Shown piece by piece: positions 2,126-60,608 of a stretch of DNA of 64,000 bases (within the stretch, counting starts at the first letter, position 1; every line of letters starts with the position of its first letter). The notes beneath the pieces are model-generated. The model saw nothing but the letters and a program-made list of their open reading frames with translations. It was not told the origin of the DNA and did no database searches. The stretch spans positions 16,616,001 through 16,680,000 of the forward strand of contig NC_059432.1 of assembly GCF_021028975.2 (NCBI RefSeq), in the 5' to 3' direction. The DNA comes from Sphaerodactylus townsendi (Eukaryota). The position numbers and the translations under genes are program-made.

Positions 2126-2432
2126 CAGCAGTGGCGTAGGAGGTTAAGAGCTTGTGTATCTAATCTGGAGGAACCGGGTTTGATTCCCAGCTCTGCCGCC
2201 TGAGCTGTGGAGGCTTATCTGGGGAATTCAGATTAGCCTGTGCACTCCAACACACGCCAGCTGGGTGACCTTGGGCTAGTCACAGCTTCTCGGAGCTCTC
2301 TCGGCCCCACCTACCTCACAGGGTGTTTGTTGTGAGGGGGGAAGGGCAAGGAGATTGTAAGCCCCTTTGAGTCTCCTGCAGGAGAAAAAGGGGGGATATA
2401 AATCCAAACTCTTCTTCTTCTTCTTCTTCTTC
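2126..2432 (+). mobile_element. Young tRNA-CORE SINE (Squam3-like)
   Basis: A box TGGCGTAGGAGG, B box GGTTTGATTCCC, CORE GGGTGACCTTGGGCTAGTCAC, (CTT)n tail; nearly identical to copies at 2632, 8063, 14702 and 31011. Confidence 0.9.
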
Positions 2433-7496: not shown

Positions 7497-8062
7497 ACTG
7501 ATCAGCAAGGTCAGCCACATCCTAAAGGTGTCCAGTGACCTGCCCATGAAGAGCTGAGGGTTTCAGGTTGCTTCTCAGCAGACAGGTGTTTCCATGACAG
7601 GCCTGCCGACAGGAGGTGCTTTGTAGCAATCTGGAGAGAGCAGCCGAAACATACCTGGAAAGAACAAGCACTTATCAGCTGTTCCGTATCTGTAGCACTT
7701 TGTTCCATTAGCGCTAAGCAACCGTCGGGGCTGATTGCAGCACAAATGAATGCTAATCACAGTTTAATTTAGTATTTTATGATACAAAATGGGATATCAA
7801 GTAGCTTTTGGTCTCTTCCCCCAGAGTAGTCACTGATGCATCAAACATGTGATCCAATTTACTAGTTTTAACATAGTCTAACAGACTGCAGATGGTCAGC
7901 TTTTCTGTTGCCTGGTTCGGTTCTATTTTCCCTATATTAGTGTGTGTGTGTTTGGGGGCGGGGGTCAATCAGATCCCCTTAGAAGCAGGCTTGATAATGT
8001 GGAAGACAGATAATTGAGTGCTGTGCTGTTATTGGGGGGGGGGGGTAACTAAGGAATGACCA

Positions 8063-8356
8063 GGAGCAGCAGTGGCGTAGGAGGTTAAGAGCTTGTGTAT
8101 CTAATCTGGAGGAACCGGGTTTGATTCCCAGCTCTGCCGCCTGAGCTCTGGAGGCTTATCTGGGGAATTCAGATTAGCCTGTGCACTCCCACACACGCCA
8201 GCTGGGTGACCTTGGGCTAGTCACAGCTTCTCGGAGCTCTCTCAGCCCCACCTACCTCACAGGGTGTTTGTTGTGAGGGGGGAAGGGCAAGGAGATTGTA
8301 AGCCCCTTGAGTCTCCTGCAGGAGAGAAAGGGGCGATATAAATCCAAACTCTTCTT

Positions 8357-8386
<30 letters not shown>
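8063..8386 (+). mobile_element. Young tRNA-CORE SINE (Squam3-like)
   Basis: Full head, CORE and long (CTT)n tail. Confidence 0.9.
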
Positions 8387-14196: not shown

Positions 14197-14700
14197 TGGT
14201 ATTTGACACCAGCAAAATAAGTGTCGAAAATGTGAACATCTTGAGGGGACTTTTTATCACTATGGTGGACTTGTGGAAAAGCTAAAGAATTTTGGAGGTC
14301 AATACAGACCATAATTCAAACGACTTAATTTACAAATGAAACCTGAGGCTTATCTGTTGGGGCTTTCGGACAAATCTCTGGAAAGAAAACATGGAACGTT
14401 GTTTTTTAAAAATAACAGCAACAGCAAGGATGTTATACTCACAGAAATGAACAATTCCAGCTATTCCTACAATTGAAGAATGACGGGTGAAGGTATTAGA
14501 GTTGGCAGAGATGGCTAAGTTGATTACTCTGCTTAAAATAAAGGACTTAGTTAAGTTCATGGGGAATTGGAAACCCTTGATAGAATATCTCGATACAACA
14601 GAAAAAATAAATAGATGACTTGAGGTTTTGAAGGTTAAGGATTGTTAAATTAAATATGGAAAAGTGGCCAAGTGCTGAAAATGTAGGGCTTAAGGGTTTA
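14197..14700 (+). mobile_element. Decayed L1 ORF2 3' fragment
   Basis: Translates as CRKCEHLEGTFYH.WWTCGKAKEFW...ARMLYSQK*...AEMAKL...WKPLIEYL with stops and a frameshift. Confidence 0.75.
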
Positions 14701-14701
14701 A

Positions 14702-14987
14702 GGGAGCAGCAGTGGAGTAGGAGGTTAAGAACTCGTGTATCTAATCTGGAGGAACCGGGCTTGATCCCCAGCTCTGCCGCCTGAGCTGTGGAGGCTTATC
14801 TGGGGAATTCAGATTAGCCTGTACACTCCCACACACGGCAGCTGGGTGACCTTGGGCTAGTCACAGCTTCTCGGAGCTCTCTCAGCCCCACCTACCTCAC
14901 AGGGTGTTTGTTGTGAGGGGGAAGGGCAAGGAGATTGTAAGCCCGTTTGAGTCTCCTGCAGGAGAGAAACGGGGGGTACAAATCCAA
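14702..14987 (+). mobile_element. Young tRNA-CORE SINE (Squam3-like); tail runs into a gap
   Basis: Nearly identical to 8063-8386. Confidence 0.9.
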
Positions 14988-26219: not shown

Positions 26220-27430
26220 AAGATAGAGACATACAGTTGGTCGGGACCCCCAAGTAGTCTAACCCACTGTACAATGTAAGAAATGTACAACTACATCCCC
26301 CTCTGCCTCAACAGTGACCCATGCTCTAGGCAAAATGGTCCCCATTACTCTTATGTATGTACGTGGGACTTTCCAAAGGTTGGAAATGTTTTTACAAGCT
26401 TCATCTGACTCAGCAGAGCAATTTCAGGACATATAAAGAGATGACAGGAGAATGGGAAGGCGGGGGAAGATGTTCTCGAGTGAGTTGCTTCCACATGCTC
26501 ATCTGTAGGATCCAAAAATTTCTGTATATATTTTTCTTTATGGTTATGTGTTGATTATTGACTCATGCTCTATGTCCAGAGGAAGGCAAACAATCTCCAG
26601 GATCCCTAGCCAATCCGGAGGAAAATTCCTTACTGGCATTACCCTGGGTATGAAAGGAAGGGTTACTGCATCCAAGAACTGACTCATCCCCTCCTCTTCT
26701 CCCTCTCATGATCTGCATAAGTTCAGAGACTCAGTATTGCTGAGGGCCATCTAGTCTCTGCTGAAAAGCCTCCAAAGAAGAAGAACCCATCTCCTAAGGG
26801 AGCCTGTTCCATTGAGAAACAATTCTGCCGGGAAGTTCTTAATGTTTAGCCAAACATTAAGAACTTAAGGAACAGCAGTGGTGTAGTGGTTAAGAGCAAG
26901 TGTATTCTAATCTGGAGGAACCGGGCTCAGGGACTTAGGTAAGGGGGGTGGTTCTCGGGTTCAAACCTCTCCCATTGCATGTCCAACTTGCTTGAAACAA
27001 TGCATGGAATGGAACAGCCAGAAAGTGCTCAGTCACCGAACACACCCCATTAAAAATCTATACCTACATCACTGACTGGGTTTGATTCCCCTCTCTGCCA
27101 CCTGAGCTGTGGAGGCTTATCTGGGGAATTCAGATTAACCTTTGTACTCCAGCACACGCCAGCTGGGTGACCTTGGGCTAGTCACAGATCTTCTGAGCTC
27201 TCTCAGCCCCACCTACCTCACAGGGTGTTTGTTATGAGCGGGGAAGGGCAAGGAGATTGTAAGCCCCTTTGAGCCTCCTATAGGAAAGGGGGGATATAAA
27301 TCCAACTCTTCTTCCTCTTCTTCTTCTAAAACCCTTTTGAATTAATTTCAACCCATTCTGGTCCAACCTTCTGGGGCAACAGAAAACAACTTGATATCCT
27401 CTTTATGATAGCCCTTCAAATACATGAAGT
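26220..27430 (-). mobile_element. Old CR1 3' region, fragmented by later insertions
   Basis: CR1-like reverse-strand segments at 26220-26330, 26570-26855 (GCCTGTTCCATTGAGAAAC...AAGTTCTTAATGTTTAGCC) and 27330-27430. Confidence 0.55.
26868..27327 (+). mobile_element. Squam3-like SINE carrying a nested hAT MITE (26928-27074)
   Basis: SINE split at ACCGGGTT; the insert has TIR CAGGGACTTAGGTA / TACCTACATCACTG with flanks ACCGGGCT/ACTGGGTT. Confidence 0.85.
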
Positions 27431-29203: not shown

Positions 29204-29306
29204 AGGGTGAATACTGGCCAGGGGGACCACCTGCTGACCAGGTATCAGGGGTCCTTGAGATCGAGGACTGACATACAACATTCCATAAGCTTGATTTTCT
29301 CTGGGT

Positions 29307-29630
29307 CAGCAGTGGCATAGTGGTTAAGAGCAGTTGTACTACTGTTACCTGGAGGAACCAGGTTTGATTCCCCACTCTGCCACCTGAGCTGTGGAGGCTT
29401 ATCTGGGGACTTCAAATTAGCGTGTGCACTCCCACGCATGCCAGTTGGGTAACCTTGGGCTAATCACAGCTTTTCTGAGCTCTCTCAGCCCCACCTACCT
29501 CACAGGGTGTTTGTTGTGAGGGGGGAGGGCAAGGAGATTGTAAGCCCCTTTGAGTCTCCTGCAGGAGAGAAAGGGGGGATATAAATGCTCCTCCTCCTCC
29601 TCCTCCCCCTCCTCTTCCTCCTCCTCCTCC
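29307..29630 (+). mobile_element. Squam3-like SINE with (CCT)n tail
   Basis: Same body as 8063-8386. Confidence 0.88.
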
Positions 29631-30542: not shown

Positions 30543-31010
30543 AGGCTGACAGTAGGTACCATTGACTTAGCTGGCAAAAAAGCAAACCCTCGCAAGACAC
30601 CTGATCACCCCAGGTTCCAAAAGAAATTAAGCCCTGTAGTAAGGCCCTCTAAACCTCTTGCTGTTATTATGGGAAATAATAACAGATTTGTGCTATAGAG
30701 GCATTGGTGTAGTTTCTGTGTGATCTGCGAACATGTATAAAGGGGGATCTCATGAGGCAGGTTCCTTCTTCTGCCTGTGTTGCCCTTGTTCCAGGGAGGA
30801 ACTGTGTAATTCGTCTCATATATGTGATTCCTCCTTCTGCAAATTACCACAGCAGAATGAGGCTAGATTCACAGGAGCGGACTAAACTTTTCCTGTGTCT
30901 GTCTGAAGTTTGGTGCTGGGAGGTATTTATTTATTTGTTTGTTTGTTTGTTTGTTTGTTTACTGTAGTTAGTTCATTTATATTCCACCTTTATCCCCAGT
31001 GGGGGCCCAA

Positions 31011-31310
31011 AGAAGAAGAAGAAGAAGAGTTTGGATTTATATCCCCCCTTTCTCTCTTGCAGGAGACTCAAAGGGGCTTACAATCTCCTTACCCTTCCCC
31101 CCTCACAACAAACACCCTGTGAGGTAGGTGAGGCTAAGAGAGCTCCGAGAAGCTGTGACTAGCCCAAGGTCACCCAGCTGGCATGTGTGGGAGTGTACAG
31201 GCTAATCTGAATTCCCCAGATAAGCCTCCACAGCTCAGGCGGCCGAGCTGGGAATCAAACCCAGTTCCTCCAGATTAGATACACGAGCTCTTAACCTCCT
31301 ACGGCACTGC
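31011..31310 (-). mobile_element. Young Squam3-like SINE inserted in an older MIR-like SINE (about 30975-31480)
   Basis: (GAA)n tail and reverse-complement body; the host resumes at AGCTTACATT...CCAAGGTCACTCAGCAAG. Confidence 0.88.
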
Positions 31311-31772
31311 AGCTTACATTGTTTTCTTTTCCTACATTTTATCCTCACCAGAACCTTGTGAGGAAGGCTAGGCTGATACGTGACCGGGCCAAGGTCACTC
31401 AGCAAGCTTTCATGGCAGAGTTGAGATTTGAACTTGAGTTTCCCAGATCTTAGTCCAACACTTTAACCACATTGGCACTCTCTCTTCAGTTAAACGGGAA
31501 GAGCATTCAATTATGTGCCCCCCCACCCCACTTCATTCAGAAGCGACTCTAAGGTAGTTCTGGACTCAAATATAACTGTTCTACAAAAAGAAATGAAAAA
31601 GGGGAAACCCTCTTTTAAAAGAGAATGAGAGGAATCAATGGCTATTTCTAAAAGAACGAATTAAGGGAAAAGAAATTCCACTCCCCATAACAACACTAGC
31701 ATGAGATCATTGCATCAACCGACCTGGCACATTCCTAGGAGTTAAACAACAACAACACAAACGCTCTACACA

Positions 31773-45544: not shown

Positions 45545-45849
45545 TCCTATCCCTTCAGTGGTTCCCAACCATTCTTATCTTCACGTCCCACCAGTCACTA
45601 AGAAACTGGGTCTAACCCTGATAGAAACAAAAATGGCCCATCATGACATGACTTGCCAAACCTGCTCACCTGCACCAAGTTGTCACTGTACTGTCTTCCT
45701 CTCCCAAATGAAACTTTTAAAGCAAACATCCCTGTGTGTAAGTTCTATAAAGATTATTATTTTTTGGCTCTTCAATAGAAGCCTACAGGGTAGAAGAGTT
45801 TTTTTATGACAAGCGATAGTGGACTCGTTGGTTATTTGCTGGTAGAGCA

Positions 45850-46216
45850 GACAGGAGAACACATGTGTGCTTTTATGCTGTGGGCCTGTGAGGCAGCAGC
45901 CCACCAGTATAAATGGTACCGGTGGAGTCCCAGGACTGTTCGCATGCTTCCAGGAGGGTGGCCCTGGAGCCACCATGGCCCTCAGAGGTGCCTTCGCATG
46001 GAGGCGCCTCTGTTTTGTTTGTAAACTTCCCTTCTCTAGACCTGTGTCTATGCTGAACTCGTGTTGATGTGTTTGGGCCTGTGCAGGGATGGGCGTAGGA
46101 AGGGGAATGTGAGGATGGGGTGTGAGGTCTGAAATAGTGTGCATCGGGGAATGCTTGTAAATTTCGTTGTGCAGGCACAATGACAATAAATGCTTCTTAT
46201 CTCATCTTATCTTATC
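45850..46216 (+). mobile_element. Probable Rex/Babar-type LINE 3' UTR
   Basis: Ends AATTTCGTTGTGCAGGCACAATGACAATAAA plus (CTTAT)n; 5' boundary uncertain. Confidence 0.45.
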
Positions 46217-46364
46217 TTCCCCCGAGGAGCTCTGCAGGGACAAGGGGACACACTCCTGTGGCCATGGCAATGCCTCGGGGGTCGGAGGGCAGGAGGCATG
46301 TCCCCTCGTTGCTGCAGGGCTGCATAGGGAAGAGAAGGAAAGTTTACAAGCAGAACGAAGGCAA

Positions 46365-49300
46365 CTGTTAATATGGCTTTGCACTATATCCTACAGCATC
46401 TTGAATAAGCTAGGGACCGCGTAAAGGGATCCTCTTTGTTGACTTTTAGTTCAGCATTCAATACTATCAGGCCGGACATTCTTCTTAACCAAACTAAATC
46501 AGCTAGCAGTACCTGAAGCATATTTTGTAGAGAAGTGGATCCTGACAAGCTTCCTAACAGATAGGAAACAGCAGGTGAAAGCTGGGAAAAGAGATTACAT
46601 CAGACACCTGTAAAATGAGGGTACTGGGGCCCCAAGGCTGTGTACTTTCACCTCACTTCTTCTCTTCTCTGTATACCAATGACTGCATCTCCAAGCGATC
46701 CATCTGTTAAAATACTGAAATTCTGAATTGATATTTAGCAAGTGATTGTGGTCTCCATATTATTATGCATTCCGAGAACAACGATGAGGAAACCGCATAC
46801 AGGCGGGAGGTTTGAACAACTAACCTCGATGGTGCCACTGGAACAATCTAGAACTAGAACACACTTAAAACCGTAGAAATGGTGGTAGATTTCAGGAGAA
46901 ACCGCTCCCATCCTACTCTCTCTCACAATACTTAGACAACCACAGTATCAATAGTAGAGAGACCTTTAAATTTCTAGGCTCCATCATATCTCATGACCTA
47001 AAATGGTCACCTAATATCAAAAATGTCATCAAAAAAGCACAACAAAGAATGTTCTTTCTGCGCCAACTCAGGAAGCTCAAACTGCCCAAGGAGCTGCTGA
47101 TACAGTTCTCTTGGAGGCTCGGGGCATCTTGGTGGGTGATTCTCCACCCCCAATTCAGGGAGGCAGGAAACAGAATTTCGTCACTTCCTGTCCAGGCTTG
47201 GCATCCATTTTAGCCAGTATTTCTTCTGCCCTGGACAGGAGTGCACGGGAATTCATGGTCACTGGTACCCACACTCCTGTCTATTGTCTTTTCCCTTCTT
47301 AACACCTCGTCTCCTGTCCAGTTTTGTCACTCTTGTTGTATCCCTTTTCTGTTACCTCCCTCCTCCGTTTGTCTAGTGTGACTAGTTTGGGGGTTAGGGC
47401 TAAGGATAGTTAGTACCTTCCCTCAGGGAATTCTTCCGCCAAAGAGAATATACCAAAATGGCCGGCCGGCTGACGATTTTCTCCTCGGCAGGATTCCACA
47501 GATCTACGCAGAGGCTACCAGAGCCTCCCTCCAAGCCCTCTAGTAAGAGCTACCAAAATTCTAAAGGGCCTGAGGAACCGATCCAGATCCTACTGCAGAG
47601 CCCCTCAGACAGAGTTCAGCCCAAACCCGTAGCTCTCTCGCTCTCTCAGCTACCTGGAGGCGGGCAACAGTCAGCCTGACAAGCGGCTGCAGATCGAGGA
47701 GCGCCGGTGCAGCTTCTGGCAGCCCCAGCTTAGCTAGCAGCGAGTTCTCGGCTCTGCCGATAGCTGTCAGGCGAAGCTGACAGGAAGCGGAGAGGGAACC
47801 CGCAGCCCAGCATTCAAGAAGCATAGCAACGATCCAAAGTCAAAGCGCAACAACGGGCGGGCTTGCACCCGCGATGCTTACTCCTGGTGCAGAACGTTGG
47901 CGCCAGCCTCAAAACCAAGCAGGCAAGAGAGACCGCCCTTGAGAAGGGAGGAGGAGCAGTTCAAGCTATATGGAGGGAGGGAGAGTGAGGCTGTTCAGCC
48001 ATTTAACTGGCAGTCATTGCTCCCAGCCGATTTTGCAGCGCTTTTTTAAATAGAGACCATCGAGGACAAGCTGCAAAATCTTCAGTACAGCCGGATTCTG
48101 AAGACCCCAGGGGAACCTGAGATGCGTGACCCAGCTTCCCAAAATGATTGACCCCATGGGCAGACTAGGGGCTACCCTAGGTCCCCATTAGATAGCTCAG
48201 GCACGCGTCCCTCCAGGGACCCTTTGCAGGAGGCAATTGCAGCCTTCAGTTCAGGGGCCTGACCCATGCCCCTACCCTCCCCTGTGCTGGGCACGCTAGG
48301 GGTTACCTAATTCTAAGAACCCCCAGTTCTTACCCAGGGGCTAGCTAGGGGTTGCACCTAGAATCTCCCATGGAAGATCCCCTGCAATTCCCTCAGGAAG
48401 AGAGAGGGCAGTGGTGATGAGGATGAAGGGACAGCACTCTCCAGTGGGCATTTTCTGACGGTCTGAGGAGGGTAGATGTGTGAGTTCTTCAGGAGACCCT
48501 CTACCAGGTGTTTTAAGGATGAAGAGCTGGCTCTCCTAATCACCCAAAACCATTTCTGCCCTGGAATTGCATTACAGAAGATGCCCAACTGCCCAGGAAG
48601 CCTCTTCATCACTTCCCCGATTAAAGGCTGTCCCAAGGGAAGCAAACAGTTCCTCCCTACCCGGAGGAAACTCCCCAAAATGGTCTTTCCGATCCCTGAA
48701 TTCTTTTCTTAAGAGAAAAATTAAAAGAGTAGGAAGCCCCAGCCTCCAAACAAACACTCCATTTCTAGCAGCCAAAAGCGATACTTGGTCCCAGAGATAA
48801 TGGATTCCATCCTAAAGAACTCCTCCTGTGGATGCCCCCCACGTTGTTTGCCACCCAATCTGGGGAGGACTTCTAGTTTAAAGAAAGGTGAGGGCAGCAT
48901 CAAGGATGCCCTTGATAAAAGAACCCGACACCATGCTCAGGAGATCTCCACGAGATCCCCTGGCTACCTCCATGAAGGCCATTGCCCCAGCATCTACTGT
49001 GGCCCAGGGCCCTTCTGGTTTTGGAGCCAACGTAGAGTCCCTCGATATTCTGCCCTAGAACTAGCGGCAGCTAGGAAGGGGGAAGGGGGGTTGATGCATT
49101 GATAGAATATGGCGCAGCATTCATTGCAGATGAAAGCTGCCAGCCGATGCGCTTGGTGTTATCGGTTTCGATCCATGGCCTCTTCCATAGGTAGCCCGGC
49201 GTAATGCCTGGATTTAAGAGCCTGGCGAAGCAGATACCCAATCTAGGAACATGATTGCCAGCTATGCCTCTTCAGGAGGTAATACCTTATTTGTGACGGG

Positions 49301-52300
49301 TGGCGTGAATTGGATCATGGTAAAATTAAGGCGGGATAGAAAGAAGACATTACCCAAATTCCTTCGTTCGACAAAAAATCAACCCTGGCCCAAAGCGTCT
49401 TTTAGTTTCTCAGAGAGTGTTGCCAACGCTTACGCATCCAGAGATGGCAAGAACAACTCCATGGACTCAGAGAGGGCAGAAATTCCTCATGGTATCCCAC
49501 GATGGATCCGGGTCTTCCTTTAAGAAGAAGGCTTTAGGTCAAAATTCGATAAGAATACCAGAGGAGGCCGGGGCACCTGGTCTCGGCTCCCCAGGTCGAG
49601 GGCGTCTTCTACTCTTCCAGGAAAGCTGGAAGGGCAGCCAACGTCGATGCGTGGACTGCAGAAATAAATCTCCCTAGGATATGCTTCATAGAATTTCTTT
49701 CTCTGCTCCCCTGAACCTTCTTTCTTCCTTCTCCTCTATAGCAACAAGAAGGACAAGCCAAGCGACTCTGGAAGTCAGTAAAACACCTCCTGGCGTGCCC
49801 GCCGCTAGAAGAGGTACCCAAGACAGAGATGTTCCTCCAGCACTAATACACTAAGCATTTTCTTCGGTCCCCAAAAAAATCCGGGGACTGGAGGCAATCC
49901 TGAATCTTCAAAGAATCAACAAATTCACTCAGACCCGCGAGATTCGGGGAAATGGAAACTCCTCAGAACAAATACCGGGGCCCTCAAGGAGCGGGGATTT
50001 CATGACATCTCTGGATCTTTCCGAGAGGCATATCTTCATGTACCCATAAGACCTTCTCACAGGAAGTTCCTCCAGGTTTAGGTGAACAACAGAAACATAC
50101 TGCAGTTCAGGGCCCTCCCTTTAGGCTGGCCTCGGCCCTCGAGTTTTTCGAAGCATACTGATGGCACCCATCTCTCTCTCCGTCAGCAAGGGTAATCCAC
50201 ATCCACCCCTATCTGGGCTGACCTTTTAATTAAGCTCGGTCCAGGGAACAAGCAATCCAAGGTCTGAGTTTGGTCAGACAAACCCTACAGACCTACGGTT
50301 TCATCATCAACACATCCAAAAGAGTTCCCCCCTTTTTTGAAAAGCCAACACAGCATCCCACAACTCATCTAGGGCCGTCATGAACCGCGAACAAAAGCAG
50401 CTCTCTTCCTCCCAGAAGAAAAAATAAACAACATTCAAAGAATGATAGGAATTCTTCTACAATCCCAATCCTGCATCGTCTTCTCTTTCTAGTAAAGAGA
50501 TTCTGAGACTCCTCGTGCCAACCATCGACCTCACCCAGTGGGAAGGTCTCCTTGCGTCCACTCCAACAGTTTCTCCTCCGTCCCTATCAACAGGGACATA
50601 ATTCACAAGAGAGGGACAGAAAGATTCTGATTCGCAGCTCCTGAAATCCGGCTCCGGGCTGTTGGTGGATGTGCAAAAGAGATGTATCTCAGGCTCAAAC
50701 AAAAGATTTACCATAATGCCGTCTCAGATCTCAGATCTTCACAGGCGCTTAAGTCCTATGGGCTGGAGAGCCAGCCGCCAAAACAAATATGCACAGTGGA
50801 AGGAAATGGACAGCAATCAGTCCTGTCTGCCCATCGCGTGTTGGAAGTCAGGCGATCTTCCTAGCACTCAAATCATTCCAGACCTCGGTTTTCCAATCGG
50901 CATGTCTTAATCCGCTTTTGACAACATAGCTGGCAAAGGCTCATATCAACAATCCAAGGGGGGGGTCAAGATCCTCCCGTTGCTGGGAAGATGTCCAGCA
51001 TTCTGACCTGGGCGAACACAACATCAAGAGCCTGAAGGGCAGAACACATTCACAGGGTTCTGAACCTACAAGCCGACTCGTCATTTAAGCTGAGCCGGCA
51101 ATCCATCTTCCTCCACGAATGGGGCACCTGAACAAGAATGATTTTCTGGACCATCACACAACACCTCGGGTGCCATCGCAGTGACCTCTAACGCATAGCG
51201 GCTTTCAGCACACAGTTACCACAGTTCATGTCCAGGTACTTTTCATCCCACAAAGCTCTTGCGTGTAGATGCTCTGACCAGCCCATGGTCAGCCAGGTCT
51301 TCTGTATGCCTTTCCACCCGTTCCTACTCTCATACCCAAACTTCGCCCGAAATCGCCGAAACAAAAGCTCAGATCATCTCTACATATACCCAATTGGCGA
51401 GGAGACGGTGGTTCTCCGCCGCAATACAAGAACTGTCCGGCAATACATTTGCGTTCCACATTCCGGTCGCCAACTCTGCTCCATCAGGGTCCACTTCTGC
51501 ACCCCGATCCGGGATAGTTTCCCATCTGACTGCTTAGGCTTGAGCGGAGGCGATCTGACAGACAAAGGTTATTCAACAGCGGTAACAGACACCCTTTCTG
51601 GCCTCAAGGCGTCCTGGAGCAATCGCGTGTATGCATCTATAACTACATCTGGAAGGCTTTTGTCAAATGAGATTACGACCAGACGGATGAATCCTGAACA
51701 TCCTTCCCTGGTATGCGGTGTTGGAATTCCCACTGGGCGGCTTCCAAAGCGGGGTCATGGTTCAACACCCTGAGAAGACAAAATTAAGCTGCATGTCCAC
51801 TGTATAGCCAAAAGTTCCAAGGGAATTTCAGCCTCACAACATCCGGATGTCATCAAGGTTTCTGTAAAGGCATGTTCAACAGTCGCATGCACCTACCATA
51901 CATGCCATGCGGCTTCCGCATCATAAGGGAAGCGCTCGGTCACTCGGCTCTAACAAAGTGCATGAACCGACCTCCCAGACTATCTACCACTTCGTTGGCT
52001 AAAGGATGAAGACATTATTCTTAGTGGCCATCATGCATTGCCAGAAGGGTGTTATCAGAATAAGGGCCTTTCCATTAACCCTAATTGGTAAGGCTCTTCC
52101 CGCGGCGACAAGGTGGTCGCTCAGCACAAGATCCCACCTTCAAGCCCAAGGCATCACTCTTCCTTCCATTTAGCAACAGGACATTATTTTGCTATCTTTT
52201 GTCCTCGACCAAACCATCCAAAGGAGCTATGGCACAACTTAGGCGATCAGGCGGTCTCTAAAAGCTTTTCATTATCGCGCTGCAGAATCGGGATCAGAAA

Positions 52301-53877
52301 GTCTCTCAGGCTCTTCATCAACACAGCTGCCCCAAACCCAGTAGGCATTGCCCGTATCGCTTCCATTAGTGCTAACATTAAGAGCTGTATGTTGGAAGCC
52401 CATAAGGCCATGAACATTTCAGTTCAGGCTGGCATCTGGCGCATTCCACTTCGTCAGCAGCCACTAGCGCCAGCATTCAGACATGGCGCCTCAGTGGAAC
52501 AGATCTGTACGAGCAGCCATACTTGGTCAACGCGCCTTCCGCTTTTGTTAGACGTACAAGCTAATTCCATGGGGTGCAGCTGACTGCAGTGTTCGGGCGT
52601 AGGAGTTCTGGGAACACATTATATAGATGCTTCGCGACAACCCACCCCCCAATTTGGGGACACTGCTTTGGGAGGTCCACCAAGATGTCTTGAGCCTCAA
52701 AGAGAGCGGTCCGGTGGTTCACTTGCATCGTGAAGGGGCCTTCTCTTGTAGGCGAAGGGCATCCAGGCCACTTCCCAGCGAATGGATTAGCATTTGCTCC
52801 ATGAGTCTCCAGTCTCTGTATATATATTCAGATATGAAAAGTTAGTGTTTAAAATACCTTTTCTAGGACAATTGTCCTGTGGTTGATGTTCTTCTTCGAC
52901 TAATGTTGTTCTTGGAGTTATTTCATTGTTGTTCACGTTATCTCTTTGAGGGACCTTTTTTTCACTTCATCGTGTTTCCCCTTTCTGGACTGCTTTCGGT
53001 CAGTAGAATACTGGCTTCTAAATGGATGCCAAGCCTGGACGGGAAGTGACTAAATTCTGTTTCCTGCCTCTCCTGGAATTGAGGGGTTGGAGATCACCCA
53101 CCAAGATGCCCTTAAGCCTACAAGAGAAGTTGCCCTTCACGGTAAGTGAACCAATGGATGATTCTACCAGAGGAATCATTGAGTCTGTCATCTGCACCTC
53201 CTATATAACTGTGGTTTGGTTCTGCAACCCAACAAGATCGAAACTGAACTTCAGAGACAATCAGAACTGCAGAAAAACAATTTAACGCTAGGCAACTCCT
53301 GCCTTCCATTGAGGGACCTGTATGCTGCACGGGTCCAAGGGCTGTGGAAAAAATGTTACTGACCCTCTGCATCCTGGACACAAACTGTTTCCAACTCTTA
53401 CCCTCTAAACGGCGTCGGCTACAGAGCACTGCGCACCGGGCAACTAGACATAAGGGAGTTAGTTTTTTCCCGAATGCCATCACTCTGTTCAAACAAATAA
53501 TTCCCCGATAATGTTAAACTATTTATTATATACTCTCATTATATAATTACTGCACTACTTTTTCATCATCATTCCTATTACCTCCATCTCCTCCCACTTA
53601 TGACTGTATGACTATGGCCTGTGCTGACTGTTTATTTTATTTTATTTTATTTTATTTTTATGATTTTGGTACATTTTATGTTTTCATTTACTACTGATTG
53701 ACCTGATTGCTTACTAGGATCCTATGGTGATAATCATTAAGAGCTGTAACATGCCTATGATTCTTGATAAATGTATATTTTTTCTTTTATGTACACTGAG
53801 AGCATATGCACCGGAGACAAATTCCTTGTGTGTCCAATAACACTTGGCCAATAAAGATTCTATTCTATTCTATTCTA
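46365..53877 (+). mobile_element. Rex1/Babar LINE copy 1 (46365-47109 and 53166-53877), split by DIRS
   Basis: Frameshifted RT: NMALHYILQHL, LFVDFSSAFNTI, PQGCVLSP.LFSLYTNDC, KKAQQRMFFLRQLRKLKLPKELLIQF; resumes YRGIIESVIC after the DIRS; (TATTC)n tail. Confidence 0.88.
47106..53165 (+). mobile_element. DIRS1-type tyrosine-recombinase retrotransposon, copy 1 (full length, heavily frameshifted as assembled)
   Basis: Left ITR 47106-47222; ICR 52681-52763; right ITR plus extension 53007-53165; collinear with copy 2. Confidence 0.92.
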
Positions 53878-54498
53878 AAGAAGCCGGTAGAAATGGTGGT
53901 GAATTCCTCAGGAAGCCACTCCCATCCTACCTCTCTCTCACAATACTAGACAACACAGTATCATAGTAGAGTAGACCTTTAATTTCTAGGGCTCCATCAT
54001 ATCTCGCGGAAGCTAAAATGGTCACTTAATACATCAAAATGTCATCAAAAAAAAGCACAACAAAAGAATGTTCTTTCTCGCTTCAACTCAGAAAGAAGCT
54101 CAAACCACTTTAAGGAGCTGCTGGATACAGTTCTCTTTGAGGCTTCGGGGGGCATCTTGCGGGTGGGTGATTCTCCACCCCCAATTCAGGGAGGCCAGGA
54201 AACAGAATTTAGTCACTTCCTGTCCAGGCTTGGCATCCATTTTAGCCAGTATTTCTTCTGCCTAGACAGGGGAGTGCACGAATTCTTGTCCTGGTACCCC
54301 ATTACCTAATTCCTATCTATTCTTCCTTCTTTTCGTCTCCCTGTCCAGTTTCATGTCACTCTTTGTTGTATCCCTTTTCTGTTACCTCCCTCTCTCGTTT
54401 GTCTGAAAGGTGTGACGCTAGTTTGGGGGGTTAGGGCTAAGGATAGTTAGTACCTTCCCCTCAGGGAATTCCTTCCGCCATAAAGAAGATATACCAAA

Positions 54499-56470
54499 AT
54501 GGTCACCGACGGCCGATTTTCTCCACCTCGACAGGATCTCCACAGATCTGCCGCAGAGGCTACTAGAGCCTCCTCAAACCCTCTAGTAAAGGCTACCAAA
54601 AAAAATTCTAAAGGGGCCCTCGAACCCGCCAAGATCCTCTGTAGAGCCCCTCAAGACAGAGTTCGTACCAACCGTAGCTGTCTCTCTCCTTCACCGGGGC
54701 GGAACAGCCGCCTGACAAGCTGCTGCAGGTGCAGGCGCCCGTGTCGGCTTCTGCGAGATACCAGCCCAACGCTGGAGGTTCTCGGCTCTGCCGATGCTTC
54801 AGGGCGATGACTCAGGGCGGAGAGGAGGGAAACCATCGGCCCGCATTCAGCGCAGAACGACGGCGGTGCAAAGCGCAACGGGCGGGCTTGCACCTCCACG
54901 CGCATGCATCAGTGCAAGACATTGGCTGACGGCGCCTCCACCAAGCAGGCAAAGAGACCGCCCGGCGAAGGGGAGGAGGAGCAGTTCAAGCTATGGAGGA
55001 GGGAGGGAGGCTGTTCAGCCATTTAACTGGCAGTCATTAACTCCAGCGGTTTGCAGCCTTTTAAATAAGACCATCGAGGACAAGCTGCAAAATCTTCAGT
55101 ACAGCTGATTCAGACCCCCAGGAACCTGAGATCGTGACAGCGCCCCAAAATTATTTACATGGGCGAACTAGGGGCTACCCTAGGTCCCCATTAGATGGCT
55201 CAGGCTTGCGTCCCACTCCAGGGACCCCTTTGAGGAGCAATTGCGGCCCTTCCAGTTCAGGGGCCTGACCCATGCCCTCCCCTGTCTGGGCAGCTAGGGT
55301 ACCCTAGACGGTTCTTACCCAGGGGCTAACTAGGGTTACCCTAGAATCCCCATGGAAGATCCACATTCCCTCAGGAAGAGGAGGGCAGTGGTGATGAGGA
55401 TGAAGGACAGCACTCTCCAGTGCATTTTCTGATTCTGAGGAGGTAGATGTGAGTTCTTCAGAGACCTCTACCAGGTGTTTTAAGGATGAAGAGCTAGCTC
55501 TCTAATCACCAAAACCATTTCTGCCCTGGAATTGCACGATACAGAAGATGCCCAACTGCAGAAGCGTATAACCATCACTTCCCCGATTAAAGAGCTGTCC
55601 CAAGGCAAACAGTTCCTCCCACAGGAGGAAACTCCCAAAATGGTCTTTCGATCCCTGAATTCTTTCTTAAGAAATTAAAAAGTGGGAAGCCCCAGCCTCC
55701 AACAAACACTCCATTTCAGCGGTAAAAGGCGATGCTTGGTCCCAGAATATGACTGGATTCCATCCTAAAGACTCCTCCTGTGGATGCCCCGTTGTTGCCA
55801 CCCAATCTGGGGACTTCTAGTTAAAGAAGGTGAGGGCAGCATCAAGGATGCCCTTGATAAAGAACCGACACCATGCTCAGGAGATCTCACGAATCCCTGG
55901 CTACCTCCATGAAGGCCATTTGCCCCAGCATCTACTGTGGCCAGGGCCCTTCTGGTTTAGACCAACAGAGTCCTCGATATTCTGCCCCTAGAACTATGAC
56001 AGCTAGGAAGGGGTTGATGCGATATTAGAATGGGGCATTCATTGCAGATGCTTCCTTCGATGCGCTGGTGTTATCGGCTGATCCATGTACATAATGGCCT
56101 CTTCATAGTGTGGCCCGGCGAAATGCCTGGATTAGAGCCTGGCAACCAGATGCCAATCTAGGAACATGATTACCAGCTATGCCTTTCAGGGTAATACCTT
56201 GTTTGGCGGCAATTTGGATGCATAATTAGGTGGAAACCAAGGATAAGAAGACATTACCCAAATTCCTTCGTTCGAATAAAATATTCCCTGGCCCAAAACG
56301 TCTTTTTTAGTTCTCAGAGAGTGTTACCCGCACATCCAGAGATGGCAAGAACAACTCCTGGACTCAGAGGGCAGAGGTCCTCATGGTATCCGTGGATCCG
56401 GTTCCTTCGTCCGAAGAAACTTTAGGTCAAAATTCGATAAGAATACCAGAGGCGGGGCACCCAAGTCCTG
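54499..56470 (+). pseudogene. DIRS ORF1 (gag-like), frameshifted as assembled
   Basis: Position after the left ITR; motif ARRNAWIRAWQ.DA...YAFQGNTLFG near 56110-56220 is typical of vertebrate DIRS gag; boundaries approximate. Confidence 0.6.
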
Positions 56471-56474
56471 ACTC

Positions 56475-57870
56475 CCCAGATTAGGGGGCGTCTTCTACTC
56501 TTCCAGGAAAGCTGGAAAGGCAACCGATAAAATCGTGGACTGCAGAAGCAAATACTCCTAGGATATGCCATAGAATTTCTTTCTCTGCCCCAACCTTCTT
56601 TCTTCCTTCTCCTCTAAGCAACAGAAGGACAAAGCCAGCGAACTCTGGAAGTCAGAAAAACCTCCTGGCGATAGCCGCCATAGAAGAGGTACCCAAGACA
56701 GAGATGTTCTCGGGCACTACTGCAAAATTTCTTTACGGTCCCCAAAAAATCGGGGACTGGAGGGGCAATCCTGAATCTTCAAAGAATCAGCAAATTCATC
56801 CAGACCCGCGGAGTCTTCATGTACCCATAAGACCTTCTCACAGGAAGTTCCTCAGGTTCGCGGTGAACAACAAACATTACAGTTCAGGGCCCTCCCCTTT
56901 GGGCTGGCCTCGGCCCGAAGTTTGAAGATACTGATAGCACCCATCACTCTCTCGATCAACCGAGGGGTCCATCCACCCCTATCTGGGCGACCTTTAATTA
57001 AGCTCACGGTCCAGGGAACAAGCAATCCAAGATCTGAGTTTGGTCAGACAAACCCTACAGACCTGCGGTTTCATCATCAACATCCAAAGAGTTCCTTAAA
57101 GCCAACACAAAACTCATCTAGAGCCATCGCGGAACCGCGAACAAAAGCGGCTCTCTTCCTCCCAGAAGAAAAAATAAACAACATTCAAAGAATGATAGGA
57201 ATTCTTCTACAATCCCAATCTGCATCTCTTCTACTTTCTAGTAAAGATTCTGGGAACTCTCCATAGCAACCATCGACCTCACCCAGTGGGAAGAAGGTTC
57301 CGCGCCGTCCACTCCAACAGTTTCTCCGTCCCTATCAACCAGGACATAATTCACAAAGAGGGACAGAAAGATTCTGATTCAGCAGCTCCTGAAATCGGCT
57401 CCGCTGGTGGATGTGCAAGAATCTTATTCAAGGCAAAACAATTTCTCCATACGTCTCAGATTCAGATCTTCACAAGCAAGTCTATCGGACTGGGGAGCCA
57501 GCCTGCAAAACAATATGCACAGGGGAAAATGGACATAATAATCAGTCCTGTCTGCCCATCCAGCGTGTTGGAAGTCAAAGGCGATCTTCCTAGCACTCAA
57601 ATCATTCAGACCTGGTTTCCAATCAACATGTCTTAATCCGCACCGACAACATAGCGGCAAAATCATATCAACAATCAGGGGTCAAGATCCTCCCGCGATT
57701 GCTGAAGTGTCCAGCATTCTGACCTGGGCGAAACACAACATCAAGAGCCTGAAGGGCAGAACACATTTCAAAATGAACCTACAAGCCGACTGGCTGAGCG
57801 GTAATCCATCTCTCCGGCAGAATGGGCACTGAACAAGAAGATTTTCTGGACCATCACACAACACCTCGGG
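56475..57870 (+). pseudogene. DIRS reverse transcriptase and RNase H, frameshifted as assembled
   Basis: GRLLLFQESWK, VPKKSGDWR, LHVPIRPSHRKFLRF, QFRALPFGLASA, HPYL(G)DL; RNase H-like TDNIAA..INNQG and N.QADWLS. Confidence 0.85.
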
Positions 57871-58215
57871 GTGCCATCGATCGACCTCTTCGCAACGGCA
57901 CAAAACACACAGTTACCACAGTTCATGTCCAGGTACTTTCATCCCAAAGCTCTTGCGGTAGATGCTCTGACCAGCCCATGGCCGCCAGTTCTTCTGTATG
58001 CCTTTCCACCCATTCCTCTCATACCCAAACTACTTCGAAAAATCATCGAAACAAAAGCTCAGATCATCCCCTCTTCGCTTTTAATTAGCCGAGGAGGCCA
58101 TTGGTTCTCCATAATACAAGAACTGTCAACATGTCGGCCGTTCCACATTCCGGTCTGCGCCAACTCTGCTCCATCAGGGTCCACTTCTGCACCCGATCGG
58201 GATGGTTCCATCTGA
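57871..58215 (+). CDS. DIRS DNA N6-adenine methyltransferase-like domain (C-terminal part of pol)
   Basis: IDLFATAQNTQLPQFMSR...AVDALTSPWPPVLLYAFPPIPLIPKLLRKI carries the DLFA and YAFPP motifs of the DIRS MT domain. Confidence 0.85.
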   Translation: MPSIDLFATAQNTQLPQFMSRYFHPKALAVDALTSPWPPVLLYAFPPIPLIPKLLRKIIETKAQIIPSSLLISRGGHWFSIIQELSTCRPFHIPVCANSAPSGSTSAPDRDGSI

Positions 58216-58239
58216 CTGCTTGGCGGCAATGGGAGGCGA

Positions 58240-59250
58240 TCTGACAGACAAAGGTTATTCAACAGCGGTAACAGACGCCTTCTAGCCTCAAGGCGTCCTG
58301 CGACGATGGCATCTCTAACTACATCTGGAAGGCTTTTGTCAAATGGTCTTCGACCAGACAGATAGATCCTGAACATCCTTCCTGAAATCGGTGTTGGAAT
58401 TCCTACAAGACGGCTTCCAAGCGGGTCTGCGTTCCAACACCCTGAGAAGACAAGTCGCCGCATCACTGTATGGCAAAAGTTCAAAGGAATTTCAGCCTCC
58501 ACAACATCCGGATGTCATCAGGTTTCTTAAAGAAAAGTTCAACAGTCACAGCCACCTACATGCCATAAGCTTCCCATCATGGAAGCTAAACTCGGTCCTT
58601 TCAGCTCTAACAAAGTCCCCTTCAACCGTCCAGACTATTCGCCGTTGGCTAAGGATGAAGACATTATTCTTAGTGGCCATCACATCGGCCAGAAGGGTAT
58701 CAGAATTAAGGGCCCTTTCCATTAACCCTAATTTGTGCGTCTTCCACTGACGACAAGGTGGTCCTTCGCACAGATCCCACCTTCAAGTAAGGCATCCCTC
58801 TTCCTTCCATTTGCAACAGGACATTATTTTGCCATCTTTTTGTCCTCGACCAAACCATCCAAAGGAAACATGGCACAACTTAGGCGTCCAGACGGTCTCT
58901 AAAAGCTTTCATTATCGCGCGAATCGATCAGAAAGTCTCAGACTCTCTTCATCAACACAGCTGCCCCAAACCTAGAGCATGCCCATGTCAGCGGCTTCCA
59001 TTAGTGCTAACATTAAGAGCTGTATCGTGGAAGCCCATAAGGCCATGAACATTTCAGTTCGGCTGGCATCTGGCGCATTCCACTAGATCAGCAGCCACTA
59101 ACGCAGCATTCAGACGCCTCCAGTGGAACAGATCTGCAAGGCAGCCACTTGGTCGCGCCTTCCACTTTTGTTAGGCATTTTACAAGTAATGAATTACATG
59201 GGGTGCAGCTGACACAGTGTTCGAGCGTGGGTTCTGGAACACATTATAGA
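58240..59250 (+). pseudogene. DIRS tyrosine recombinase, frameshifted as assembled
   Basis: ORF 58391-58750 LEFLQDG...HPDVIRFLK...KTLFLVAITSARRVSELRALS; AHSTR at about 59073-59087; EQICKAATWS.PSTFVRH. Confidence 0.9.
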
Positions 59251-60608
59251 TGCTTAACGACAACCCACCCTAATTTGGGGACACTGCTTGGGAGGTCCAC
59301 GCAAGATGCCGAGCCTCAAAGAGAGCGGTCCATTGGTTCACTTACGTGAAGGGGCCTTCTCTTGTAAGAGGCGAAGGGGCATCTTGGCCCTCAATGATAG
59401 TTAGCATTTATCATGAGTCTCAGTCTCTGTATATATATTCAGATATGAAAAGTTAGTGTTTAAAATACCTTTTCTAGGACAATTGTCCCTGTAGTTGATG
59501 TTCTTCTTACGACTAATGTTGTTCTGGAGTTATTTCATTGTTGTTTACGTTATCTTTGAGGGACCTTTTCACTTCATGTTTCCCTTTCTGGACTGCTCGG
59601 TCAGTCGAATACTGGCTAAAATGGATGCCAAGCCTGGACAGGAAGTGACGAAATTCTGTTTCCTGCCTCCCTGAATTGGGGGTGGAGAATCACCCACCAA
59701 GATGCCCCTTCGCCTACAAGAGAAGGCCCCTTCACGGTAAGTGAACCAATGGACCGTTCTACAGAGGAATCATTGAGTCTGTCATCTGCACCTCTATAAC
59801 TGTGTGGTTTGGTTCTGCAACCCAACAAGATCGACACAGACTTCAGAGAATAATCAGAACTGCAGAAAAAACAATTGCTGCTAACCTGCCTTCCATTGAG
59901 GACCTGTATACTGCACGGGTCAAAAAAAGGGCTGTGAAAATATTTACTGACCCCTCGCATCCTGGACACAAACTGTTTCAACTCTTACCCTCTAAACGTC
60001 GCTACAGAGCACTGCACACCAAGACAACTAGACATAAGAACAGTTTTTCGAATGCCATCACTCTGTTAACCAAATAATTCCCTCGATAATGTTAAACTAT
60101 TTATTATATACTTATTATATAATTACTGCACTACTTTTTTCATCATTCCTATTACCCATCTCCTCCCACTTATGACTGTATGACTATAGCCTGTGCTGAC
60201 ATTTTATTTTATTTTATTTTATTTTATTTTATGATTTTACATTTTATGTTTTCATTACTACTGATTGTTTCCTGATTGCTTACTAGACCTATATGACAAT
60301 CATTAAGTGCTGTACCTTATGATTCTTGATAAATGTATTTTTCTTTTATGTACACTGAGAGCATATGCACCGGAGACAAATTCCTTGTGTGTCCAATCAC
60401 ACTTGGCCAATAAAGATTCTATTCTATTCTATTCTAAAAGTGGCTTCTCCGACCCGGTGCCGTTCGCTTGGCACCGGGTACAAAACGCTGTTTTTGAAAA
60501 GACTCAGTTTCAAAAACAGCGTTTCCCTGCTGGTTGGGGGAGAAAAGGCGCAGTCCTGCCTCGTTGCAGAGGCATCAGCCAAGTGAACAGCACTCTATGT
60601 CAGTCCAT

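What the first reader, a model, noticed from the sequence alone, without database searches (positions are those of the whole stretch)
46365..60436. Head-to-tail duplicate of a LINE+DIRS composite with an identical insertion point
Seen: the unit from about 46866 to 53878 is repeated at 53879-60436. Both Rex1 copies carry a full DIRS at the same base (codons QF|YR), in the same orientation, and copy 2 begins right after the (TATTC)n tail of copy 1. Hypotheses (inference): (a) the DIRS hitch-hikes as cargo in a LINE RNA that keeps its 3' recognition tail, so copy 2 is a 5'-truncated retrocopy mobilised in trans; (b) this DIRS family targets Rex1 site-specifically; (c) a local tandem duplication using TAAA microhomology; (d) a gap-filling artefact or two haplotypes laid end to end. 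Options (a) and (b) would be an unusual transposon-on-transposon system, but the noisy sequence makes (c) and (d) at least as likely.
Basis: partly seen in the sequence, partly recalled or inferred. Interest (0 to 1): 0.7.

Follow-up and report, generated by a model that had tools for sequence, protein, structure and literature searches.

The report
Doubled LINE-DIRS block in noisy sequence
One jumping gene (DIRS) landed once inside a truncated copy of another (a Rex1-type LINE), and the 7-kb block appears twice in a row in error-rich sequence; the doubling is likely an ordinary local DNA duplication, nearly as likely an assembly error, and unlikely to be a new transposon-on-transposon system.

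Summary
Observation confirmed: 46866-53879 recurs head-to-tail at 53880-60439 (82% identity, mostly indels), each copy a LINE split by a full DIRS1-like element at one GTTCT core. The copies descend from a single insertion: 19 DIRS and 2 LINE variants are shared almost only by them. Targeting (b) fails: 0 of 27 other DIRS ends lie in Rex1. LINE cargo (a) is unsupported: the junctions occur only here among the best-scored hits, the host LINE is a 5'-truncated fragment, and 0 of 26 Rex1 copies sit behind a Rex1 tail. The differences between copies look like long-read errors (indel-rich, strand-biased A/G, not CpG), as in many repeats of this assembly. The error pattern changes at about 54925, 1 kb past the tandem joint rather than at it, which mildly favours one read carrying the joint, hence a real local duplication (about 0.5) over a gap-filling artefact (about 0.42). 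The TAAAA microhomology cannot be established through the noise. Public contigs were uninformative. An earlier scan note reports another DIRS tandem in raw-read sequence elsewhere in this genome (not checked). Ordinary either way; interest 0.15.

The parts
46228..46364 (+). Left half of an older dispersed repeat that the LINE interrupts
   Evidence: 74-83% to L122 and L126, which run on without a break into the right flank
46365..47109 (+). 5'-truncated Rex1/Babar-type LINE, copy 1, part before the DIRS; starts inside the RT region
   Evidence: 15 of 17 paralogues extend or match further 5'-ward or start later; alignment starts at 46365; ALKBH8_N domain E 4e-11
46958..47435 (.). Nearly error-free island around the left LINE|DIRS junction inside otherwise noisy sequence
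   Evidence: Error-free runs of 197, 85, 73 and 43 bases; a public contig matches 47307-47437 exactly
47105..53165 (+). DIRS1-like element, copy 1: left ITR about 47106-47221, gag (LAP2alpha) about 48713-49583, RT-RH about 50025-50942, MT-like about 50930-51555, YR about 52003-52561, ICR about 52697-52763, right ITR about 53007-53128, rE to 53165; frames broken by about 10% noise
   Evidence: Self-BLAST; domains mapped from copy C9
53166..53875 (+). LINE 3' part, 3' UTR and (TATTC)n tail, copy 1
   Evidence: 81-87% to 17 paralogues; same tail length as copy 2
53876..53886 (+). Tandem joint: tail plus 3-5 flank bases, then LINE sequence equal to about 46866-46873; noisy, overlap of 0-5 bases undetermined
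   Evidence: only this locus spans it among 40 scored of 1165 candidates
53880..54134 (+). LINE middle part, copy 2 (repeat of 46866-47109)
54130..59760 (+). DIRS1-like element, copy 2 (left ITR about 54131-54253, ICR about 59316-59387, right ITR 59608-59724, rE to 59760), with an 89-bp gap at 56811
   Evidence: Dam-like MT hit E 0.006 at 57805-58212
46365..54925 (.). Noise regime 1 (insertion-rich, about 9-10% errors); runs across the tandem joint
   Evidence: Change point 54925, 25 log-likelihood units better than at the joint
54925..59482 (.). Noise regime 2 (deletion-leaning, about 6% errors)
59761..60434 (+). LINE 3' part and tail, copy 2, nearly error-free
   Evidence: Up to 98.4% to paralogues; 3 substitutions and 3 deletions in 864 trusted positions of 59500-60436
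60435..60580 (+). Right half of the older repeat, beginning TAAAAG
   Evidence: 82-83% to L122 and L126

Best explanation
A DIRS1-like retrotransposon inserted once into a truncated Rex1-type LINE at a shared GTTCT core, likely by its tyrosine recombinase crossing over in that core, and the block was then likely copied head-to-tail at the DNA level. Order of events: older repeat, then a young 5'-truncated LINE inserted into it (shown by the empty-site paralogues), then one DIRS inserted without a target duplication (single insertion shown; recombinase step inferred from the published DIRS1 model), then a 7-kb local tandem duplication from about 46866 to a few bases past the LINE tail (inferred; template switching or end joining at A-rich ends). 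The 18% difference between the copies is sequencing noise (inferred from its spectrum), so the copies are probably near-identical and recent.
For: One origin: the copies share 28 substitutions against three other DIRS copies where about 2.4 are expected; of 30 shared isolated substitutions 19 are absent from C2a, C10 and C2b; copy 1 shares 2 of copy 2's 3 rare LINE substitutions (paralogues carry them in 1 and 2 of 31); same tail length, seen in 9 of 29 other copies. Noise, not age: private substitutions are CpG-type in 9 of 150 and 8 of 83; isolated A/G vs C/T changes 23:6 in copy 1, reversed 5:33 in copy C10; longest open frame 193 and 163 aa vs 968 aa in C9. Joint inside one noisy segment: 53879-54850 has the error rates of 46365-53879 (p 0.49) and not those of 54850-59500 (p 2e-11; boundary chosen after seeing the data, errors bursty). 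Only 1 of 11 other noisy repeat copies (C2b) has both rates that high. A gap closer that fills with one read's fragment (PMC7476103, passages) would need a molecule that holds the joint.
Against: No read or contig seen spans the joint (uninformative). 8 of 11 other noisy copies are also insertion-rich, so two reads could look alike. Regime 1 is insertion-rich while raw nanopore reads are deletion-rich (PMC8486125, passages), so it may not be one raw read. The joint falls within 5 bases of the repeat/flank boundary, where software boundaries also fall. Each element junction is clean in only one copy and the tandem joint is noisy on its right side. The microhomology parse is one edit worse than overlap-free parses. 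Two other noisy loci show odd direct duplications (L013, 186 bp; C2b, about 80-100 bp). The assembly method is unknown.
Confidence: 0.5

Rival explanations
1. Assembly artefact: the locus has one LINE+DIRS block, and two or more long reads (or two haplotypes) extended into the gap from both sides were laid end to end without being merged.
For: All of 46365-59482 except one island is 6-10% noisy; two error regimes; the copies differ only by error-like changes; the joint sits at the tail/flank boundary; overfilled gaps are common with PBJelly (28,377 in one fish assembly, PMC9635638, passages); other duplications at noisy loci here.
Against: The regime change is about 1 kb past the joint, not at it. 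No N lies at the joint. 53779-53877 holds one base found in no other LINE copy (3 of 54 matches, equal to the three fetched loci of this window), so it is not a stray short-read contig. A read reaching the tail would overlap the clean right segment by about 0.9 kb and could have closed the gap with one copy (inference).
Confidence: 0.42
2. LINE cargo: an RNA of the composite was reverse transcribed by Rex1 proteins and primed on the (TATTC)n tail of its own source locus, giving a 5'-truncated retrocopy in tandem.
For: Explains why one breakpoint is at the tail and why copy 2 is 5'-shorter; the LINE family is young (best pairs 97-98.5% identical).
Against: No dispersed composite (best 40 candidates each). 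0 of 26 LINE 5' ends follow a tail and 0 of 29 tails are directly followed by the LINE. The source LINE lacks its 5' end, yet the RNA would have to start upstream of the DIRS. Landing on its own locus among several hundred tails is improbable without a cis mechanism. Tail length identical in both copies.
Confidence: 0.04
3. This DIRS family targets Rex1 site-specifically and inserted twice into two adjacent LINE copies.
For: Same base and strand in both copies; 5-bp GTTCT identity between target and circle junction.
Against: 0 of 27 other DIRS ends lie in the LINE; the two DIRS and the two LINEs share private variants; the other ends share little more than TT.
Confidence: 0.01

Closest known systems
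DIRS1-like tyrosine-recombinase retrotransposons of vertebrates (AcDIRS1/2, TnDIRS1a, XtDIRS2/3 in Table 3 of PMC3266345; passages seen)
   Same: About 5.75 kb; ITRs, ICR, right extension; gag, RT-RH, MT-like, YR; ends in an NTT core matching the circle junction; no target duplication.
   Different: This copy sits in a LINE with 5 bp of core identity; window frames are unreadable because of noise; no sequence comparison with the named elements was made.
Rex1/Babar non-LTR retrotransposons (review PMC6274825; squamate Rex-Babar in PMC8872380; passages seen)
   Same: AP-endonuclease-like stretch upstream of RT in a long paralogue, frequent 5' truncation, conserved 3' UTR, short tandem oligonucleotide tail.
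   Different: Clade assignment was not tested by a tree; the link of the ALKBH8_N (DUF1891) domain to Rex1/Babar is recalled.
Microhomology-associated local tandem duplication (template switching or end joining; PMC11790251, search listing only; mechanism otherwise recalled)
   Same: Single locus, head-to-tail, shared private variants, short or no homology at the joint.
   Different: Joint unreadable through noise; reality not shown.
Overfilled gaps and false duplications from long-read gap filling (PMC9635638, PMC8848313, PMC7476103 passages; PMC9516828 search listing)
   Same: Raw-read quality sequence inside a repeat, doubled content.
   Different: No N spacer; the error pattern does not change at the joint.

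Membership tests
DIRS1-like retrotransposon | Inverted terminal repeats | tested here: met
   47106-47221 vs 59608-59724, 96.6% inverted
DIRS1-like retrotransposon | ICR complementary to both ends, with right extension | tested here: met
   59322-59387 vs 59697-59760; ICR reads as right end joined to left end
DIRS1-like retrotransposon | gag, RT, RNase H | tested here: met
   In copy C9: LAP2alpha 4e-16, RVT_1 7e-15, RT_RNaseH 1e-5
DIRS1-like retrotransposon | Tyrosine recombinase | tested here: met
   Phage_integrase E 4e-4, below the curated cut-off, at the expected 3' place in C9
DIRS1-like retrotransposon | Methyltransferase domain | tested here: inconclusive
   Dam E 0.006 and 0.011, below cut-off, at the expected place
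DIRS1-like retrotransposon | NTT core, no target duplication | tested here: met
   Empty LINE site holds GTTCT once; each junction keeps it; other ends mostly TT
Rex1/Babar LINE | RT with upstream AP endonuclease | tested here: inconclusive
   RVT_1 5e-20 in L018; Exo_endo_phos_2 E 0.001, below cut-off, in L133
Rex1/Babar LINE | Conserved 3' UTR, oligonucleotide tail, 5' truncation | tested here: met
   29 loci: tails of 4-17 units, varied 5' ends
Rex1/Babar LINE | RT groups with Rex1/Babar, not L2 or CR1 | not tested
LINE-mobilised chimeric retrocopy | Dispersed copies with differing 5' ends | tested here: not met
   Only this locus spans the junctions
Target-specific retrotransposon | Independent insertions at one target sequence | tested here: not met
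   0 of 27 other ends in the LINE; shared variants
Real tandem duplication | Joint supported by independent reads, doubled depth | tested here: inconclusive
   Only contigs were available; they drop such links
Real tandem duplication | Microhomology at the joint | tested here: inconclusive
   Twelve parses tie; the TAAAA-overlap parse is one edit worse

The most novel reading that the evidence does not exclude
The tandem is real and arose by tail-primed reverse transcription in cis: a read-through RNA of the LINE+DIRS locus annealed to the locus's own (TATTC)n tail and was copied there by Rex1 proteins, so a LINE duplicates itself in place and carries an intact 5.7-kb DIRS as cargo.
Probability: 0.04. 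Interest if true: 0.6.

Novelty: new member of a known kind. Interest (0 to 1): 0.15.

Why it matters
As most likely read, it matters little: a nested insertion of two known element types plus a local duplication or an assembly error. It does warn that many young repeats in this assembly carry 2-10% read-level noise, which inflates their apparent age, breaks their frames and makes tandem repeats of them untrustworthy without reads. If the in-place retrocopy were true, it would show a second route of DIRS spread that needs no recombinase, and a way for microsatellite-tailed LINEs to build tandem arrays.

Tried and rejected
Public runs: 20 listed, 3 hold over half the words. Contigs of X15-X18 laid on 45600-53878 showed the empty LINE site in all four runs but no go-back joint among 15 of 121 joints shown, and the tool skips the tail repeat. 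X15 on 46850-46899 gave 4 loose ends, none with tail letters before 46866. Contigs drop weak links between high-copy repeats and I had no control that these samples carry this allele, so this is no evidence either way. Contig depth (flank 68, 24, 28; DIRS about 500, 150, 350) cannot separate 6 from 7 copies and is no copy number. The idea that 53779-53877 is a misplaced short contig was rejected. Old divergence of the copies was rejected. 9 of the 30 shared substitutions are A to G before CG and 11 of 30 recur in other copies, so these were set aside as likely systematic errors or family variants. In one search, 7 of 34 rows were dropped before counting: 3 window rows and 4 ICR matches; one more end (L045) was filtered because it abuts another DIRS. 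I first guessed a snake and read snake papers; earlier scan notes call the genome a lizard or gecko (not checked). Literature: one search for DIRS, nested, inserted into, LINE, tandem duplication gave 1 plant review; this is not proof that no such case is in print. No supplements were read.

Full report
Observation. The window lies at G000:C8:16616001-16680000 of a 1.81-Gb assembly. The stretch 46866-53879 recurs at 53880-60439 with 5963 matches, 368 mismatches and 492 gap events, 82% identity. Each copy is a LINE cut at the same base by a DIRS of about 5.7-6.0 kb on the same strand.

The parts. The DIRS has inverted ends, an internal complementary region and a right extension. The cleanest copy elsewhere (C9) gives LAP2alpha-type gag, RT, RNase H, and weak recombinase and methyltransferase hits, the layout described for DIRS1-like elements in PMC3266345 (passages), which integrate by crossover in a 3-bp core without target duplication. 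The LINE is a young family (best pairs 97-98.5% identical) with RT, a following ALKBH8_N domain, a weak endonuclease hit in one long copy, and a (TATTC)n tail. I file it as Rex1/Babar-type from these features and recall, without a tree. The window's LINE starts inside the RT at 46365. Its two flanks are the halves of one older repeat that is whole at two other loci, so the TAAAA after the tail is target DNA.

One insertion, not two. Against three other DIRS copies the two window copies share 28 substitutions where about 2.4 are expected. Of 30 shared isolated substitutions, 19 are absent from the three further copies compared; 9 of the 30 are A to G before CG and likely systematic errors. In the LINE 3' part copy 1 shares 2 of copy 2's 3 rare substitutions; at the third, and at a 3-bp gap nearby, copy 1 has the common state, which may be noise or a true difference. 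Other DIRS copies are not in the LINE: 0 of 27 ends from 22 loci. Hypothesis (b) is rejected.

No sign of a cargo system. Four searches with the LINE|DIRS junctions returned only the two window copies as spanning hits, among 40 scored of 1208-2318 candidates each; the tandem joint is also unique. Of 29 LINE loci, 26 show their 5' end and none follows a tail; none of the 29 tails is directly followed by the LINE. A retrocopy would need an RNA starting in a LINE that has lost its 5' end and would have to land on its own locus. Tail priming would explain the breakpoint at the tail, so (a) is not excluded, but I give it 0.04.

The differences are noise. Private changes are mostly indels; CpG-type changes are 9 of 150 and 8 of 83; purine transitions outnumber pyrimidine ones 23:6 in copy 1 and the bias is reversed, 5:33, in copy C10, as expected if it follows read strand (inference). 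Noise of 2-10% is common in this assembly's young repeats: 11 of the 22 other copies profiled are noisy in whole or part. Noise alone therefore does not show an artefact.

Real or artefact. Error rates per trusted base (substitution, deletion, insertion) are 0.038, 0.013, 0.044 over 46365-53879; 0.032, 0.017, 0.050 over 53879-54850; 0.025, 0.020, 0.012 over 54850-59500; near zero after. The best change point is 54925, 25 log-likelihood units better than the joint. Two reads spliced at the joint would be expected to change there, and only 1 of 11 other noisy copies has the first pattern in full. If the fill comes from one read, as in the tool described in PMC7476103 (passages), the joint existed in a molecule. 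Against this: 8 of those 11 copies lean to insertions; raw nanopore reads lean to deletions (PMC8486125, passages), so the first regime may be a thin consensus; the joint lies at the repeat boundary; it is not clean, and the microhomology parse is not the best one; two other noisy loci carry odd direct duplications (from 119 partly overlapping loci surveyed); and overfilled gaps are a documented fault (PMC9635638, PMC8848313, passages). The assembly method is not known to me. Public contigs could not decide. I put a real local duplication at 0.5 and an artefact at 0.42.

Verdict. Two known element types, one nested insertion, and a doubling that is either an ordinary tandem duplication or an assembly fault. 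An earlier AI note on this genome (e1-9956481) reports a DIRS dimer in raw-read sequence with the same open question; I did not locate or test it. Interest 0.15.

Noticed in passing
L013:952-1138 and 2390-2569 (G000:C3, about 70.398 Mb): A noisy LINE copy is flanked by a 186-bp direct repeat (87%), the second copy starting right after the tail: an unusually long target duplication or a gap-filling fault.
   Followed up: partly
L034 (G000:C2:17142500-17152400): The DIRS copy C2b holds 2.3 kb of unrelated sequence flanked by a doubled 80-100 bp of DIRS; no match among the other fetched loci.
   Followed up: partly
L131/L132 (G000:C11, about 2355470): The right end of a related DIRS abuts the left end of a more distant DIRS element head-to-tail: a possible DIRS-into-DIRS-end insertion.
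   Followed up: partly
L032:3845-6748 (G000:C9): Cleanest DIRS copy, with a 968-aa stop-free frame holding RT, RNase H and recombinase hits; in the published layout pol and YR are separate overlapping frames, so a residual frameshift may join them.
   Followed up: no
window 46035-46218: 3' end of a second high-copy element with an AATAAA and a (TATCT)n-like tail, inserted in the same older repeat about 150 bp upstream of the LINE.
   Followed up: partly
window 2126-2432, 2631-2906, 8062-8372, 14695-14987, 27075-27327, 29306-29626, 31010-31314: Seven copies of a young 250-320 bp repeat (86-98% identical); two end at runs of N.
   Followed up: no
L019:2341-3148 and L135:3560-4030: A LINE copy sits within a tandem array of about 265-bp units, partly palindromic.
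   Followed up: no
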